A DNA stretch of 64,000 bases from a virus, in the IMG/VR virus record IMGVR_UViG_3300042556_001828, positions 9,373 through 73,372 of that record; one strand, 5' to 3'. The position numbers were made by a program, and so were the translations under genes. The notes beneath the pieces are model-generated. The model saw only the letters and a program-made list of their open reading frames with translations. It had not been told where the DNA came from and made no database searches. Below are positions 6,803 through 61,026 of the stretch, in pieces; position 1 is the stretch's first letter; the number at the start of each line of letters is the position of its first letter.

Positions 6803-7231
6803 TCAGGCAGTGGGCGGATTCAGACCAAGGCCGGTGAACAACTTCACGTCAGAAGCCTTGAGGCGACCATCGCGGGCACCCACATACCCGCTCGTCAAAC
6901 TAGCCGACGGATCATACCCAGCTGTCTTCGTTGTCGAAGACAGCGGAGCACCAATGCGAGACAACTCAGCCGCGTTTTTATGCGAGGCCAATTTGATCAC
7001 AAGTTCCATCGCGCGGACCGGATCCCGAAGGGCAGCGTCAAGCGCCTCCTTCTGGTGGGCTTCAATGCGCTCATTCTCAACGCAAGCCTTCACAGCTTCG
7101 GGGATAAGCCGAGCCAGCTTTTCTTGCGTTTCTTCTTGAGCTTTGATTACGGACGCGGCCTTAGTCATCGCGGCATCGGAAAACCCGATGTAGTCGACGA
7201 TCTTCTGTACGAGAGCGTTGTTTGTAGACAT
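6803..7231 (-). CDS. Head-assembly helical protein (K-x-A motifs)
   Basis: Start MSTNN with GGAGG RBS; TKAA, EKLA, IKLA, TKTA. Confidence 0.7.
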   Translation of the reverse strand: MSTNNALVQKIVDYIGFSDAAMTKAASVIKAQEETQEKLARLIPEAVKACVENERIEAHQKEALDAALRDPVRAMELVIKLASHKNAAELSRIGAPLSSTTKTAGYDPSASLTSGYVGARDGRLKASDVKLFTGLGLNPPTA

Positions 7232-7247
7232 TAAAACCTCCGGGATA

Positions 7248-8618
7248 TCAACGGTTGACAAGTTCAATAACGTGCTGCTTCATCATATCGCGGAGTTCAC
7301 GCGACCGCTTGGTGCGCGCTTCCTTGATCTGAAACTTGCCAGCTCGTTTAAAATTCACAACAGCGCGGCCAATGGTGTCCAGCTCACCAGCCGGTGTAGC
7401 AGCCGCCAGCTTTGGCGCGCCGCCCATCGCAGCCGGGTCAACCGGAGCCTCACCACCCATGCCGCCCATAGCGTCAGCCTCGCCGCCGGCAGGAGCGCCG
7501 CCGTGAGAAATAGCCTGAATCAGTGCTTCCGGCGGAATACCAAGCTCTTGCAGAGCCATAGCAAGTTCCTGCACGGCGTCGTCTTCCGACGGCGCGCCGC
7601 CCATTTCGCCGCCCATTTCGCCGCCCATTTCGCCGCCCATTTCGCCGCCCATTTCAGGGGCAACGCCGCCAGCAGCTTCTTCAGCCGCAACCGGAGGAGC
7701 GTCACTGGCACCAGAGGCTGCATCGGCCGGAGCCGAGTGATCTTCGCCCTCAGCAGCTTCTTCAGTCGGATCAGCGGCTGCAGCCTTGGAGCTAGCAAAC
7801 CCGATAAACAGGTCAGCCATTTCGTCGGCTTCACGAATCGTGTTAGCGCAAACTTCGCGCACGGAAGCTTCAGCAGCAGCCTTGTCCATGCCGAGCTGCG
7901 CAGCCAGCTCGTAACCAGCGTTAAACGCGGCTTCTTTGCCATCGCGCAGCGACTTAAGATCCGAGCCTTCAATCTTTCCGTCTTTATCGACGTCAAGCTT
8001 CTTTTGGCCGCCCTTTAATTCGCCGGTCGGCGCATTACCGGCTTCCTCTTTTTTTTCTTCGATCTTCTCCTTCAGAAAAGCCGGCATCTCAGCCTGCTTA
8101 TCAAGGTTCGCGGTACCGAAGTTAATGAGGTTGGCCAGAATGTCGTTGCCGAGGTTGCTGCAATGCGCACGGGCTTCCTTGAAGTTTACCGAGCTATACT
8201 TCTCGCCATCATTGGTCTTGGCGGGATGCGTGGTGCCCGGGTCATCCTTGGTGCCCTTGTAATCGCGCTCAGCGGCGGGATCTTCGCCGGTCGCAGCAAC
8301 ATTCGTGTTGATGTTGAGCTGCACGTCGTCTTGACGACCTTCTTGCGACATCTCTGGTGTGTTGTCAACGGCAAGAGCGCCTTGCTGCTTCTTGATGTCA
8401 GCTTCGTACTCGCTCGCGCGGGCGCCGGTGTTGGCGGTTTGCACGTCGTTGTCGACGCTGGTGCTGGGGTGAGTCGAGGCGCCCTGATAGCCACCCGGAT
8501 CGGACGGCGTGGGGCCAGCGACCTTCTCGGCGGCAGACTTCACAGAGCTTTGCGAAATCTCTTCAGCCAGAGCGTTAAGTTGAGCGAACAGTGAACGTTG
8601 CATCCGTGCCATGGTCAT
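7248..8618 (-). CDS. Scaffold-like acidic low-complexity head protein
   Basis: 456 aa, acidic and Ala/Gly-rich; between protease and MCP; many K-x-A sites; DVDKDGKIEGSDL EF-hand-like segment. Confidence 0.65.
   Translation of the reverse strand: MTMARMQRSLFAQLNALAEEISQSSVKSAAEKVAGPTPSDPGGYQGASTHPSTSVDNDVQTANTGARASEYEADIKKQQGALAVDNTPEMSQEGRQDDVQLNINTNVAATGEDPAAERDYKGTKDDPGTTHPAKTNDGEKYSSVNFKEARAHCSNLGNDILANLINFGTANLDKQAEMPAFLKEKIEEKKEEAGNAPTGELKGGQKKLDVDKDGKIEGSDLKSLRDGKEAAFNAGYELAAQLGMDKAAAEASVREVCANTIREADEMADLFIGFASSKAAAADPTEEAAEGEDHSAPADAASGASDAPPVAAEEAAGGVAPEMGGEMGGEMGGEMGGEMGGAPSEDDAVQELAMALQELGIPPEALIQAISHGGAPAGGEADAMGGMGGEAPVDPAAMGGAPKLAAATPAGELDTIGRAVVNFKRAGKFQIKEARTKRSRELRDMMKQHVIELVNR
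7600..7656 (-). repeat. 12-bp coding tandem repeat (GGEM) x about 5
   Basis: cccatttcgccg repeated; encodes EMGGEMGGEMGGEMGGEMGG in the scaffold-like protein. Confidence 0.9.
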
Positions 8619-33012: not shown

Positions 33013-33276
33013 TTACCGATTAAACATGAATATGATGTCGAGCATAAAGCGCAGGAGCACCGCCGCCCACGCGAGTACGCCGCTGATAGCTAAAAAAAGC
33101 ACAAACCCGCTCGACAGCACAACGGGGGCTAATTTATGCACCGGAATATTTTTGAGCACCCGCCACGCCTTGACGTAGTCCAGCGCGGAGAGCGGCTCAG
33201 GCTGCGGCACCGGGGTTGGTGTCGGCTTCGGCTTCGGCCAAATCTTGTTGCGCAACGTGTCGAACACATTCGGCAT
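33013..33276 (-). CDS. Small membrane protein
   Basis: 87 aa; Pro-rich segment then TM; contains a copy of the terminator-tail motif (see findings). Confidence 0.6.
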   Translation of the reverse strand: MPNVFDTLRNKIWPKPKPTPTPVPQPEPLSALDYVKAWRVLKNIPVHKLAPVVLSSGFVLFLAISGVLAWAAVLLRFMLDIIFMFNR

Positions 33277-51757: not shown

Positions 51758-51803
51758 CGCTGATAGCTAAAAAAAAGCGCAGAGGCCCTTGTGGGCGTGC
51801 GCT
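51758..51803 (-). terminator. Intrinsic terminator with conserved AGCTATCAGCG tail (copy 1)
   Basis: Minus strand: GCGCACGCCCACAAGGGCCTCTGCGC-T8-AGCTATCAGCG. Confidence 0.75.
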
Positions 51804-51812
51804 GTTTATTAC

Positions 51813-52250
51813 TTACAGTCCGATCAAGAAGCCCTGCGCGAACGAGATGGCAGGATCGTGCGAGATCTGGTCGGCGTCTGTTAAGACAGCGACCTGAAGC
51901 TGCACCCCAAATTGCTTCAGGAAGCTTTTGCTGAAAGACGAACCCGGTGTGTACGCAGGCGTCGCATTCGCAAGGGCTTCAGCAAGCAACCCAGCGCTAT
52001 AGGCCAAGACCATCCGCTGCCGTGCTTGCTTGGTATAGTCAATCACGGGCGCTTCAGCCGGCACAGTCACTTCCACAGGCGCAGCAGGAGCAGGAGTCTC
52101 GATCTCCAGCTTCTCGTAGTCTGGCGGCACTACAAGCTCAACAGCAGCCTGCGCAGCATTCTCGGCAATCAGACTTCGGCACACCGTCAGGCCGTAGAAG
52201 ACCGCGCCGACAACAACACCAACAATGAACATCTTTACGAAATCACGCAT
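51813..52250 (-). CDS. Membrane-anchored hypothetical protein (own transcription unit)
   Basis: 145 aa; N-terminal TM; GGAG RBS. Confidence 0.75.
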   Translation of the reverse strand: MRDFVKMFIVGVVVGAVFYGLTVCRSLIAENAAQAAVELVVPPDYEKLEIETPAPAAPVEVTVPAEAPVIDYTKQARQRMVLAYSAGLLAEALANATPAYTPGSSFSKSFLKQFGVQLQVAVLTDADQISHDPAISFAQGFLIGL

Positions 52251-52302
52251 GGCATAGATCTCCGCACCTGTGGGTTAGCTCAGCGGTTACGCAACAACTG
52301 AA

Positions 52303-52350
52303 AGCTATAGGTGGTTCACTATATATGCCCGGATTTCGACTTTTATTTAG
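52303..52350 (-). promoter_or_regulatory. Putative phage promoter CTAAATA-N14-GGCATAT-N12-CTATAGCT (copy 1)
   Basis: Same boxes and the same 14-nt spacer as 53064-53110. Confidence 0.6.
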
Positions 52351-52518
52351 ATATCAAGTCCCCCACGCATCAGTCGCGTCGTCTTCTTCAATCTCGCCGA
52401 ACATGTGCATGAATACATCCTCTATGTCCATGACGCACCTCCCGGGATATTGATATCTAAGCCCACGACTATTTTACTTGAACAGGGTGCCGGAGCTGCC
52501 AGACCAACAACGGTTTGC

Positions 52519-52599
52519 CGTAACTAGTTGTGGCTGTTGGGTTTACGTCACACGGCTAATAGTTGCGTGCCGTAAGTCCATTATTCACAACACTTTACG
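52519..52599. promoter_or_regulatory. Two 29-bp imperfect palindromes CGTAA-N19-TTACG, 52 bp apart
   Basis: 52519-52547 and 52571-52599, both preceded by tgc. Confidence 0.5.
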
Positions 52600-52608
52600 A
52601 CGATTGGC

Positions 52609-52656
52609 CGCTGATAGCTAAAAAAAAGCACAGAGGCCCGTGAGGGCATGTGCTTT
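52609..52656 (-). terminator. Intrinsic terminator with conserved AGCTATCAGCG tail (copy 2)
   Basis: Minus strand: GCACATGCCCTCACGGGCCTCTGTGC-T8-AGCTATCAGCG. Confidence 0.75.
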
Positions 52657-53075
52657 GGTGTCCCATGTTCTACGGTGGCGGACAGACACCTTTAGATGCG
52701 GGCTTTCGAGACGCCACGCCGCATCTGCCAGACTTTCACTGGCTCCCATTTGTGTCGGTGGGTTACCCAAATGCGCAGCGGTTTGATTTTACCGGCCTGC
52801 GTGCGCGCAACAGCCGGGGTTACGGGACAAGTTTTACGCCATTACCGATTGGGCGAAAGGCTGCCGATTAACGCACGGCAGCACCACGTCCAAGAGTTTC
52901 ACTGGACCCCATTTAATCGGTGGGTTTCCATCAAGGCTTTTTTTATACCCGCCTGAGCTTGTCCGACTGTTCCAGTGGTCGGGCACCTTATCCCCGTAGT
53001 TAACCGTACGGGTCGGTGTGTCAGCACAGGCAACACTTTTGGAAAAGCGCTGGCTGTGCTGACAGCTATAGTTCT
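52620..53075 (-). ncRNA. Candidate ~450-nt structured ncRNA
   Basis: No credible ORF; bounded by promoter copy 2 and terminator copy 2; long 5' hairpin 53019-53064; duplicated ACCCACCGA...AATGGG..CCAGTGAAA module. Confidence 0.6.
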
Positions 53076-53110
53076 ACACCTAATATGCCGGCTTTTTGCC
53101 CGGTATTTAG
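53064..53110 (-). promoter_or_regulatory. Putative phage promoter CTAAATA-N14-GGCATAT-N11-CTATAGCT (copy 2)
   Basis: Matches 52303-52350. Confidence 0.6.
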
Positions 53111-53125
53111 GTGTGTTAGGCCTGC

Positions 53126-53473
53126 TCATGCTTTGAGCCCGCCATGTTTCTCAATCACGGCTTCGACCACTTCGACGGGCACGTAGGCGTAGACCGTCTC
53201 TGTGGGGTCGTCGGAGTTCTCAGCGTACGCCAGCAGCTCCTCCACGCGCTGAGACGGGTAACCGATCTCGACCTCCGTCCACGGCCCAATACTGTCGCGA
53301 GGAGCGCAGTAGTGGGTCTGGCTGGCCTGCACAGACAGCGACAAGCCATCCGCGCAGGTGATAGGCGCCACCTGCCGGAAGCCCCGCGCCTGCATGTAGG
53401 GAGTATTAAACTCGCCCTTCAGGTTCGCGGAATCGAGCAGGTAGGCATTCAGATCAAATTTAACAGCGGTCAT
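53126..53473 (-). CDS. Hypothetical phage protein
   Basis: 115 aa; CADGLSLSVQASQTHYC...VEIGYPS...YAYVP...IEKHGG, a recurrent phage family; AAGGA RBS. Confidence 0.8.
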   Translation of the reverse strand: MTAVKFDLNAYLLDSANLKGEFNTPYMQARGFRQVAPITCADGLSLSVQASQTHYCAPRDSIGPWTEVEIGYPSQRVEELLAYAENSDDPTETVYAYVPVEVVEAVIEKHGGLKA

Positions 53474-56814: not shown

Positions 56815-56820
56815 CGAAAA

Positions 56821-57162
56821 TGGAGGCGGCCGGATTTGCACCGGCGTCCAGAGTAAATTCCACAAAGACATCTACATCGTTATCGCGTTGTTCTCACACT
56901 CCGCGCAAAGCCAGCCGATTATCGGCGTCAGGTGGGCTACCACCATCTTTGGCTGTCTCTCCAGCCTGCCCGACTTCTTCCAGTCTTCCAGCGTGAGGGG
57001 CGATAGCGTCACGCGCGCTACCCGATCACTGCACTAGGCAGCGAGAGCGGGGACACTGTTGAAAGTGCCAATTAACATGTGATTAGCTTTTTACGTGGCC
57101 AGCTAATCAACCACGGCATGCAGTTCAAACCTTCCTCATCCTGTCGATACCAGTACGCCCCC
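56821..57162 (-). ncRNA. ssrA: tmRNA
   Basis: 5' GGGGGCG / 3' CGCCTCC-A acceptor with G3:U70; TCGAC 5' motif; T-arm GCCGG-TGCAAAT-CCGGC; tag ORF 57034-57069 GTFNSVPALAA-stop. Confidence 0.92.
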
Positions 57163-60925: not shown

Positions 60926-61026
60926 GCAATATCCTCCGTGATTACCGGTCGCGCAGATCCACAAATACATATTTGCGGGGCGCAAAGAATATGCCAGTTT
61001 TTGCCGAATAATTTAGCCGCGCTCAA

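What the first reader, a model, noticed from the sequence alone, without database searches (positions are those of the whole stretch)
52609..53110. ~450-nt ORF-less transcription unit with duplicated T-loop-like module: candidate novel phage ncRNA
The unit has the same promoter-like and terminator elements as the neighbouring protein gene but no credible ORF. It opens with a long hairpin (TGTCAGCACAG...CTGTGCTGACA). It carries two copies of a module on the minus strand: AACCCACCGATTAAATGGGGTCCAGTGAAACTCTTGGAC (about 52888-52926) and AACCCACCGACACAAATGGGAGCCAGTGAAAGTCTGGC (about 52727-52764). Each is a CCCA/TGGG hairpin followed by a stem with a UGAAA T-loop-like loop. Inference: tRNA-elbow-like mimics or a protein-sponge RNA, possibly anti-defence.
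Basis: partly seen in the sequence, partly recalled or inferred. Interest (0 to 1): 0.7.

Follow-up and report, generated by a model that had tools for sequence, protein, structure and literature searches.

The report
New structured RNA gene in a lake phage
A roughly 450-base stretch of an uncultured lake phage has its own start and stop signals but no protein gene, and appears to encode a folded RNA of a previously undescribed family whose job is still unknown.

Summary
On the minus strand, about 53070 to 52621, a promoter-like element typical of this phage group and a strong intrinsic terminator bracket about 450 nt. No frame there shows a coding signal: codon scores are -0.25 to 0.08, against 0.29-0.41 for neighbouring genes. 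Two copies of a 44-nt two-hairpin module lie 163 nt apart. A model built from copy 2 alone finds copy 1 at E about 1e-5.

New here: a related phage contig (L105) carries a homologue with both modules and nearly the same terminator. Across the 4 module copies, 35 of 36 stem cells pair and 4 of 9 pairs change on both sides. The UGAAANU loop is kept.

The 5' hairpin is the closing stem of a roughly 410-nt RNA domain present in relatives L016 and L105 but absent here.

Nothing matches Rfam, tRNA finders or GenBank phages. Five related phage records lack the body.

Verdict: a real, undescribed phage non-coding RNA family, so far seen in two genomes. Expression was not tested. The T-loop, tRNA-mimic and anti-defence readings remain conjecture. 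The same stretch was noted before by this scan in an overlapping window.

The parts
53059..53109 (-). Promoter-like element: TAAA-N15-CGGCATAT (53083-53109), followed by CTATAGCTGTCAG (53059-53071)
   Evidence: Motif count is 4 in the window against 0.58 expected. The same motif is found in the related loci L005/L006, L016, L027 and L105. By reading, it precedes 3 of 3 downstream genes in L105 and 2 of 3 in L016; the third in L016 precedes the RNA domain. The transcription start is not mapped.
53019..53064 (-). 5' hairpin of about 21 bp with one C-C mismatch. It is the remnant closing stem of a domain present in relatives, and a possible RNase III site (inference).
   Evidence: I1; duplex -32.4 kcal/mol. 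In L016 the homologous arms (7218-7234 and 7649-7665) pair across about 410 nt. L105:48-66 carries the 3' arm.
52993..53012 (-). Small hairpin CCCGUA / UACGGG
   Evidence: Mean pair probability 0.94. Single sequence only; L105 has about 370 other bases here.
52888..52931 (-). Module copy 1. Hairpin A: 52921-52924 with 52908-52911. One unpaired base. Hairpin B: 52902-52906 with 52889-52894, loop UGAAACU.
   Evidence: The homologue is L105:505-546.
52860..52882 (-). Hairpin C1: GCUGCCG / CGGCAGC
   Evidence: Pair probability 1.00. RNAalifold keeps a helix here, with changes on both sides in L105 (columns 71-95).
52837..52855 (-). Hairpin D: CGCC / GGCG, with a conserved loop and a following UAAA
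   Evidence: Best-conserved block of the body between the window and L105. The pairs do not vary (columns 106-126).
52792..52817 (-). Hairpin E: CCGGCUG / CAGGCCGG, followed by a conserved AAAAU
   Evidence: Read. L105 has CCCUGU / ACAGGG at the aligned place. Not predicted as such by RNAalifold.
52726..52769 (-). Module copy 2. Hairpin A: CCCA / UGGG. Hairpin B: GCCAG / CUGGC, loop UGAAAGU.
   Evidence: The homologue is L105:762-814, with a 13-nt insert in loop A.
52694..52726 (-). Hairpin C2: AGAUGCGG / CCGCAUCU
   Evidence: Pair probability 0.95. Changes on both sides in L105 (columns 331-357).
52657..52690 (-). Hairpin F ahead of the terminator: GGUGUC / GACACC
   Evidence: Pair probability 0.97. 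Three pairs change on both sides in L105 (columns 366-398).
52620..52656 (-). Intrinsic terminator: 12-bp interrupted stem plus T8
   Evidence: A 58-nt stretch that includes it is 96.6% identical to L105:868-924. The same kind of terminator follows the 145-aa gene.
52611..52620 (-). TAGCTATCAG boundary motif that runs on from the T-tract
   Evidence: 5 exact minus-strand copies in the window, all at the ends of units. Present after terminators in relatives.

Best explanation
The unit is a stand-alone gene for a structured non-coding RNA of about 450 nt. It belongs to a family not yet described.

Shown:
- It sits between a promoter-like element and an intrinsic terminator that this phage group uses for its accessory gene cassettes.
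- It has no coding signal.
- It has a homologue in a second phage.
- Its body is a string of hairpins, including two copies of a conserved two-hairpin module. Hairpin A is a 4-bp stem CCYA/URGG whose loop starts with CC and ends with AAA. One unpaired base follows. Hairpin B is a 5-bp stem with a 7-nt loop UGAAANU.

Inferred:
- Stems covary while loop bases stay fixed, so the loops are probably what is read. I take the two modules to be two equivalent docking sites for a protein or RNA partner.
- The RNA would then act in trans as a bivalent decoy or scaffold. My odds for this particular mechanism are about 0.3.
- Hairpin B has the size of a T-arm, and its loop resembles that of the phage's own tmRNA (UGCAAAU). 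A factor that recognises T-arms is therefore the leading candidate partner (weak evidence).
- The 5' hairpin is most likely a processing site for a double-strand-specific RNase. In relatives the same stem encloses and could release a separate RNA domain of about 410 nt.

The confidence given below is for 'real structured non-coding RNA gene of a new family', not for the decoy mechanism.
For: Promoter and terminator:
- Bipartite motif: 4 matches against 0.58 expected; shared with relatives.
- Terminator.

No coding signal:
- Frames in the unit score -0.25, 0.08 and -0.09. Four neighbouring genes score 0.29-0.41.
- The matching regions of L105 and L016 score -0.20 to 0.01. Their real genes and the 25-aa ORF score 0.28-0.35 in one frame each.
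- No Pfam family for the 76-aa and one 50-aa frame.
- A frame-by-frame protein comparison of the window and L105 matches only where the DNA itself is conserved.
- A 1-nt indel between the two module copies breaks any shared frame.

Homologue:
- L105:1-925 aligns over the 3' arm of the stem, both modules, hairpin D and the terminator.

Covariation on the 4 module copies:
- 97.2% of 36 cells pair.
- 4 of 9 pairs change on both sides.
- Covariation score 0.574 against 0.211 in shuffles; 3 of 500 shuffles reach it.
- Slid registers give 25-53% paired.

Whole body, two sequences:
- 63 predicted pairs, 14 with changes on both sides, against 8 of 56 on the opposite strand.

Folding energy:
- z = -3.1 for the unit, -4.1 for L105:1-915, -6.6 for the L016 domain.

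T-arm likeness:
- The best non-self hit of the module model in 80 kb is the T-arm of the phage tmRNA, E 0.09.
Against: - No expression data. No RNA run holds the stretch.
- Only two genomes carry it. The 4 module copies are 2 paralogues in each of 2 phages and are not independent. Both copies in each genome carry the same change in hairpin A.
- Alignment A12 was fitted to the structure it is used to test.
- The opposite strand folds about as well: z = -2.7 and alifold energy -58.4 against -54.8. Strand choice therefore rests mainly on the promoter, the terminator and gene direction.
- RNAalifold paired CCYA of copy 1 with URGG of copy 2. Local and long-range topology cannot be told apart.
- A frame of about 50 codons from copy 2 through the terminator is open in both phages. 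Against it as a gene: its ATG is ATA in L105, its codon score is -0.09, and its stop lies beyond the U-tract.
- The body is absent from 5 of 5 related phage records.
- Nothing identifies a partner.
Confidence: 0.72

Rival explanations
1. Cis-acting leader that makes the transcribing polymerase resistant to terminators. It would work like the double-hairpin put RNA of phage HK022. The modules would fold as they are made, stay bound to the polymerase, and carry it through the terminator at 52620-52656 and the terminators of later cassettes.
For: - Each module is a double hairpin of about 44 nt (about 65 nt with hairpin C). The put elements are about 65-nt double hairpins that act without a protein (PMC8632103, section 7, passages read).
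- The unit has a promoter but no gene, and lies upstream of same-strand cassettes that each end in a terminator.
- The conserved 25-aa ORF just downstream follows a strong terminator and has no bipartite promoter of its own, in the window and in L105.
- Different genes follow the RNA in the window and in L105. This fits a processive, gene-independent effect.
Against: - No likeness to HK022 put. Model R2 gives no hit below E 0.69 in 8 kb around cI-cro, and none at the expected sites and strand.
- The unit ends in a strong, highly conserved T8 terminator that is shared with ordinary cassettes.
- Cassettes further downstream have their own promoters.
- Two copies in one transcript, plus about 300 nt of other conserved hairpins, are not needed for a put-like role.
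- Read-through was not measured.
Confidence: 0.18
2. A DNA-level element rather than an RNA. It could be protein-binding iterons of a replication origin, or recombination or packaging sites in a cassette-exchange region. The repeated CCACCG and GTGAAA motifs would be the binding sites.
For: - ORF-less, with repeated motifs and inverted repeats.
- The region exchanges cassettes. L105 has a protein gene in the slot next to the small ORF. A 95-99% identical strain replaces 52660-52981 with 355 other bases.
- Boundary motif TAGCTATCAG at the ends of units.
Against: - Substitutions between copies and between phages keep base pairing, including a U-G pair that would be A-C on the other strand. They do not keep the sequence. 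This is what an RNA shows, not a protein-binding DNA site.
- No AT-rich segment and no shift in GC skew.
- The promoter and terminator frame the element exactly.
Confidence: 0.06
3. A small-protein gene or a decayed protein gene. Candidates are the 43-50-codon frame from module 2 to the terminator, or the 76-aa frame. The repeats would then be repeated peptide motifs.
For: - The frame through module 2 is open in both phages and aligns at 48% over 52 residues.
- The same slot holds protein genes in other relatives.
Against: - Codon scores are -0.25 to 0.08, against 0.29-0.41 for genes.
- There is no conserved start: ATG in the window is ATA in L105.
- The stop codon lies after the U-tract, so terminated transcripts would lack it.
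- The protein-level match falls on the DNA-conserved module and terminator.
- The 1-nt indel between the copies.
- No Pfam family.
Confidence: 0.05
4. An RNA mimic of a host immune RNA. It could be a solitary CRISPR-repeat decoy (RNA anti-CRISPR) or a pseudo-antitoxin of a type III toxin-antitoxin system, with the modules mimicking the host repeat.
For: - Repeated hairpin units ending in GUGAAAC or GUGAAAG resemble repeat ends of some CRISPR types (recalled, not tested).
- The location is accessory and fast-changing.
Against: - The spacing is 163 nt and there is no tandem array. TRF finds nothing.
- Conservation continues past the putative repeat end to close hairpin B.
- The module pattern gives 8 single hits in 185,579 species genomes. 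0 of 8 has hairpin B and none is an array.
- The host is unknown, so its own repeats could not be compared.
Confidence: 0.04

Closest known systems
Large ornate phage-associated non-coding RNAs (GOLLD, ROOL)
   Same: These are ORF-less, highly structured RNAs of several hundred nt, carried by phages and found in lake metagenomes. Their function was long unknown. I saw the abstract of 10.1101/2024.12.08.627333 in a search listing. Their frequent position near tRNA genes is recalled. The unit here lies about 4 kb from a tmRNA and four tRNA genes.
   Different: No match to any of the 4227 Rfam models, which include these families: window at gathering score, 52200-53300 at E up to 10, L016 and L105 at E up to 1. 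The unit is smaller, at about 450 nt. It is built as a string of hairpins with a duplicated module. So far it is known from two genomes.
HK022 put antiterminator RNA
   Same: A phage RNA element made of two adjacent hairpins. It lies in an untranslated, promoter-proximal transcript upstream of terminators and acts without a protein (PMC8632103, section 7, passages read).
   Different: No sequence or profile likeness. There are two copies in one transcript here. The unit ends at its own strong terminator. According to an earlier, unchecked note of this scan, this phage encodes its own multisubunit polymerase.
T-arm of tRNA and tmRNA (T-loop motif)
   Same: A 5-bp stem and a 7-nt loop with U at position 1 and A at position 5. 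The loop UGAAANU compares with UGCAAAU in this phage's tmRNA. The motif is described in PMC4810234, section 4 (passages read).
   Different: Position 3 is A, not the C that pairs with the D-loop in tRNA. There is no acceptor stem, no D-arm and no CCA end. tRNA finders do not detect it.
rRNA-type processing stems and phage RNase III sites
   Same: A long, near-perfect stem formed by the sequences that flank a large structured RNA, as in L016 and L105. In the window the two arms are joined directly. The analogy with RNase III substrates is recalled knowledge.
   Different: Cleavage was not tested. In the window the stem encloses nothing.

Membership tests
Any Rfam 15 family (incl. GOLLD, ROOL, HEARO, OLE, raiA, 6S, RNase P, YrlA, riboswitches, group I/II introns) | Score at or above the family's gathering threshold | tested here: not met
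   Window: only tmRNA and 5 tRNAs, none in the unit. 52200-53300 at E up to 10: a chance mir-3170 match on the 5' hairpin (24 bits against 98 needed) and one E 3.6 hit. The RNA regions of L016 and L105 give nothing at E up to 1.
tRNA or tRNA-like structure | Cloverleaf or acceptor/T-arm geometry detected by ARAGORN or the tRNA covariance model | tested here: not met
   ARAGORN finds 6 genes in the window, none in 52600-53110. No tRNA-clan hit in the region at E up to 10.
T-loop motif | Pentanucleotide with U at position 1 and A at position 5, able to form the closing reverse-Hoogsteen pair | tested here: met
   UGAAA begins the loop of hairpin B in 4 of 4 module copies. The definition is from PMC4810234, section 4. 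This is sequence compatibility only.
T-loop motif | [quoted passage not shown] | not testable with these tools
   No RNA 3D prediction or probing was available.
Interdigitated double T-loop (recogniser of the tRNA elbow) | Two head-to-tail T-loops within one compact domain | tested here: inconclusive
   Loop A ends in UUAAA in copy 1 of both phages, but in ACAAA in copy 2 of both. A second T-loop is therefore not consistently possible. The geometry is untestable.
HK022 put antiterminator RNA | Sequence or profile likeness to putL or putR | tested here: not met
   Model R2 over AF069308 24000-32000: best E 0.69, and no hit at the cro-cII or PL-nun leaders on the transcribed strand.
HK022 put antiterminator RNA | Double hairpin in a nascent untranslated leader upstream of terminators, giving terminator read-through | tested here: inconclusive
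   Architecture and position fit. Read-through cannot be tested here.
Type III antitoxin / pseudo-ToxI | Tandem direct repeats of about 34-36 nt | tested here: not met
   TRF finds no array in 52500-53200 at score 30. The copies lie 163 nt apart.
CRISPR repeat mimic (RNA anti-CRISPR) | Likeness to a CRISPR repeat present as arrays in bacterial genomes | tested here: not met
   The module pattern gives 8 single hits in genome contigs and no locus with more than 1 match. 0 of 8 has hairpin B. The host's own repeats are unknown.
Riboswitch or cis-regulatory leader of one gene | Conserved linkage to the same downstream gene, with an expression platform that competes with the aptamer | tested here: not met
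   The downstream neighbours differ: the 25-aa ORF in the window, and a promoter plus an 84-aa ORF in L105. The terminator is a generic cassette terminator also found after other genes.

The most novel reading that the evidence does not exclude
The two modules are RNA devices that act on the transcription or translation machinery itself. There are two versions:

(a) A protein-free, put-like antiterminator. It would ride on the polymerase (the host's, or the phage's own multisubunit enzyme) and open a whole series of terminator-bounded accessory cassettes.

(b) A bivalent T-arm look-alike. It would trap a host factor that reads the tRNA or tmRNA elbow, for example a tRNA-cleaving defence nuclease or a tmRNA partner, and so protect the phage's own tRNAs and tmRNA.

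Either would be a new RNA-only phage control or counter-defence mechanism, carried on an exchangeable cassette.
Probability: 0.15. Interest if true: 0.8.

Novelty: new variant of a known kind. Interest (0 to 1): 0.5.

Why it matters
Very few phage non-coding RNAs have a known function. This one is small enough to synthesise. It has a clear repeated module with fixed loop bases that can be mutated. It sits in a cassette with defined start and stop signals, so its function can be tested directly by reporter read-through, pull-down or deletion.

It also shows that the accessory-cassette region of a large, little-studied group of lake phages carries RNA genes as well as protein genes. Two separable RNA domains are combined in different ways in three relatives. 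That is a case of modular evolution of RNAs by the same cassette exchange that shuffles phage protein genes.

Tried and rejected
Searches that found no further homologue:
- GenBank phages by blastn, with the window unit, the L105 RNA and the L016 RNA: no match.
- IMG/VR pattern scans for the module, the 5' stem and the small-ORF flank: 0, 0, 1, 1 and 0 loci. Both hits (L106, L104) were unrelated on reading.
- Metagenome pattern scan for the 5' stem: 0.
- Species genomes: 8 hits, all judged chance. My rough expectation of about 16 chance hits is an estimate, not a computed value.
- 80 loci found through the widespread 115-aa neighbour protein, scanned by regex together with the other loci held (103 in all): no module outside the own genome.
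- Related records G001-G005 by BLAST, pattern and covariance model: only promoter and terminator pieces match.

Expression: no RNA holder is listed among the 24 runs returned, so expression could not be examined.

Laid contigs of 4 DNA runs:
- X13 and X16 pieces are identical where they cover the unit, so they give no variation for covariation tests.
- X17 has a 3.7-kb contig that is 95-99% alike in the flanks. It has 355 other bases in place of 52660-52981. I could not read those bases.
- Parts of the unit have no cover in X13, X16 and X21. I draw nothing from this.

Ideas considered and dropped:
- Third partial copy of hairpin A near 52680: not conserved in L105.
- Pairing of loop A of copy 1 (CCGAU) with AUCGG in hairpin D (probability 0.75): L105 does not keep it in the same columns.
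- Replication origin: no composition signal.
- Sigma-70 scan: at chance level.

Literature:
- Two searches for a described RNA of this kind found none: 'phage-encoded / noncoding RNA / T-loop / covariation' and 'jumbo phage / structured RNA / metagenom / novel RNA'. I read listings only.
- The phage Arash paper appeared in a search listing only and was not read.
- Supplements were closed and not consulted.
Full report
SETTING. The window is bases 9373-73372 of a 73-kb IMG/VR virus record, estimated 36% complete. All long ORFs run on the minus strand. A tmRNA and five tRNA genes are present. The tmRNA and four of the tRNAs lie at 56.8-59.9 kb, about 4 kb upstream of the finding. An earlier, unchecked note of this scan describes the virus as a lake phage of about 200 kb with its own multisubunit RNA polymerase. 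The runs that hold this DNA are labelled lake or freshwater metagenomes.

THE OBSERVATION. Read on the minus strand, the 115-aa gene ends at 53126. Four elements follow it:
- A bipartite promoter-like element, TAAA-N15-CGGCATAT, at 53083-53109, and then CTATAGCTGTCAG.
- A hairpin with 22-nt arms at 53019-53064.
- A body of about 360 nt.
- A strong terminator, with its stem at 52625-52656 and T8 at 52620-52627.

The promoter motif occurs at 53083 and 52323 with no mismatch and at 60989 with one mismatch. All three are on the gene strand. A fourth one-mismatch hit lies inside an ORF, which gives 4 matches against 0.58 expected. The motif recurs in the related loci L005/L006, L016, L027 and L105. 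By reading, it lies upstream of genes there. I did not test that comparison.

The two module copies are at 52888-52931 and 52726-52769, 163 nt apart. They align over about 65 nt. A covariance model made from copy 2 alone finds copy 1 at E 9.5e-6 in 67.6 kb searched on both strands. The repeat is therefore not chance.

NOT CODING. A codon log-odds score was trained on 23 long genes of the window.
- Four nearby genes score 0.29-0.41 in frame and -0.2 to -0.6 out of frame.
- The three longest frames of the unit score -0.25, 0.08 and -0.09. No 120-nt window between 53120 and 52520 exceeds 0.20 in any frame.
- The 76-aa frame starts upstream of the promoter and runs through the promoter and the 5' hairpin.
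- Neither the 76-aa frame nor a 50-aa frame has a Pfam family.
- The two module copies differ by a 1-nt indel, yet sequence is conserved on both sides of it.

A HOMOLOGUE. The last metagenome scan used the 145-aa downstream protein as query. It returned L105, at 73% protein identity.
- Its first 925 bases are ORF-poor. The frames there score -0.20 to -0.01, while the real genes of L105 score about 0.3.
- This stretch aligns with the unit. It contains the 3' arm of the long stem (L105:48-66), about 370 extra bases, module 1 (505-546), hairpin D, a roughly 90-nt insert and module 2 (762-814, with 13 extra bases in loop A).
- It ends in a terminator. A 58-nt stretch that includes the terminator is 96.6% identical to the window.
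- Mean identity over aligned columns is 64%.
- A frame-by-frame protein comparison finds matches only where the DNA is conserved. The longest is a frame from module 2 into the terminator, 48% over 52 residues. It lacks a conserved start, and its stop lies beyond the U-tract.

COVARIATION. The four module copies were aligned to the model (A12).
- Hairpin A is CCCA/UGGG in both window copies and CCUA/UAGG in both L105 copies.
- Hairpin B is UCCAG/CU(U)GGA, GCCAG/CUGGC, UGUCG/CGGCA and GCCAG/CUGGC in the four copies.
- The loop stays UGAAA(C/G/U)U throughout.
- 97.2% of 36 cells pair, and 4 of 9 pairs change on both sides.
- The covariation score is 0.574 against 0.211 in shuffles, and 3 of 500 shuffles reach it. 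Sliding the partners by 1-3 columns drops pairing to 25-53%.

Caveats: these are four copies from only two genomes, both copies in a genome share the hairpin-A change, and the alignment was fitted to the structure.

For the whole body, RNAalifold on the two sequences predicts 63 pairs, 14 with changes on both sides. The opposite strand gives 56 pairs, 8 with such changes, at similar energy. RNAalifold paired CCYA of copy 1 with URGG of copy 2. Local hairpins and a long-range helix fit the data equally well.

Single-sequence pair probabilities support hairpins B1, C1, C2 and F, the 5' stem and the terminator, at 0.87-1.00. The folding-energy z-score of the unit is modest, at -3.1.

THE 5' HAIRPIN IS A REMNANT. 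In L016, a relative with 75% identity for the 200-aa gene, the same promoter motif at 7171-7197 is followed by a 5' arm at 7218-7234. That arm pairs perfectly over 17 bp with 7649-7665, about 410 nt away.
- The enclosed domain folds with z = -6.6.
- Its frames have no coding signal (-0.14 to 0.01), and it has no Rfam match.
- Its last 60 bases are 92% identical to L105:1-60.
- After the stem, L016 has an 83-aa gene (codon score 0.32) and not the two-module body.

Two RNA domains are thus combined differently in three phages. L016 has the inner domain only. The window has the two-module body only. L105 has the body and at least the end of the inner domain; its locus is cut at the 5' side. Between the window and L016, the stem keeps its pairing through changes on both arms, which I read from the sequences. 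A long stem made of the flanks of a structured RNA recalls RNase III processing of rRNA precursors and of phage transcripts. This is recalled knowledge, was not tested, and is inference.

DISTRIBUTION AND TURNOVER. The body was not found in any of the following:
- Related phage records G001-G005, one of them complete with terminal repeats.
- IMG/VR by pattern.
- GenBank phages.
- 185,579 species genomes.

In L105, four protein genes lie between the RNA unit and the small ORF that directly follows the RNA in the window. In run X17, a contig that is 95-99% alike in the flanks has 355 other bases in place of 52660-52981. It keeps the terminator, the 5' stem and the promoter. The unit is therefore an exchangeable accessory cassette. 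The cassettes are bounded by terminators whose T-tract runs into TAGCTATCAG.

WHAT IT DOES. Nothing measured here shows a function.
- The stems vary while the loop bases stay fixed: CC...AAA in loop A and UGAAANU in loop B. The loops are therefore probably recognition surfaces, and two copies suggest two equivalent docking sites.
- Hairpin B has the dimensions of a T-arm. Outside its own copies, the module model's best hit in 80 kb is the T-arm of the phage tmRNA (GCCGG/UGCAAAU/CCGGC), at a weak E of 0.09.
- UGAAA has the U1 and A5 of the T-loop motif (PMC4810234, section 4). It lacks the C that tRNA uses for the D-loop contact, and no tRNA-like whole exists.
- I therefore rank a trans-acting, factor-binding RNA first, at about 0.3.
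- A put-like cis antiterminator comes second, at about 0.18. It fits the double-hairpin form, the gene-less promoter-proximal position, the promoter-less small ORF behind the terminator and the varying downstream genes. It has no likeness to HK022 put.
- DNA-level, coding and immune-RNA-mimic readings are unlikely, for the reasons listed under the rival explanations.

COMPARISON AND NOVELTY. The closest known kind is the set of large structured RNAs carried by phages and abundant in lake metagenomes (GOLLD, ROOL). The unit is not a member of these or of any Rfam family. Two literature searches found no description of such an RNA (listings only). I class it as a new family within a known kind. 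Its anatomy is unusually clear, but its phylogenetic base is very narrow.

LIMITS.
- No expression evidence could be obtained.
- Only two genomes carry the RNA.
- The 5' part of the L105 RNA and the X17 allele could not be read.
- Supplementary files of papers were not available and were not needed for any claim made here.

Noticed in passing
window 52354-52431 (-); L105:2820-2897: A 25-aa acidic ORF with a strong GGGAGG ribosome-binding site. Its codon score is 0.35, and it is conserved in L105 (0.345). It is bracketed by an 11-nt perfect inverted repeat (52347-52357 / 52450-52460). In both phages it follows a strong terminator directly and has no bipartite promoter of its own.
   Followed up: partly
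window 33083-33092, 51760-51769, 52298-52307, 52611-52620, 53059-53068 (all -): TAGCTNTCAG marks the ends of units. Three copies run on directly from terminator T-tracts and two follow the bipartite promoter. The same motif follows terminators in G001, G002, L016 and L105. It may be a cassette-boundary or recombination element, or part of a second promoter class.
   Followed up: partly
L016:7205-7675: An ORF-less RNA domain of about 470 nt behind the same promoter motif, closed by a 17-bp long-range stem. MFE z = -6.6, with no Rfam match and no coding signal. Its last 60 nt are 92% identical to L105:1-60. It looks like a second undescribed RNA domain of this phage group.
   Followed up: partly
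window 56818-57162 (-): The phage-encoded tmRNA (87 bits) has the tag peptide GTFNSVPALAA. Its T-loop reads UGCAAAU, with G where U is usual at the second position (what is usual is recalled).
   Followed up: no
Neither matches any Pfam or PADLOC family at E up to 0.1.
   Followed up: partly
window 53207-53440: In the contig of run X17, the interior of the 115-aa gene is replaced by 276 other bases, while its ends are 95-99% alike. This shows fine-scale mosaicism between close strains.
   Followed up: no
L016:4391-4500: A weak YrlA (Y RNA-like) match, 31 bits against 69 needed, E 0.0025. It overlaps a tRNA gene in the tRNA cluster of the relative.
   Followed up: no
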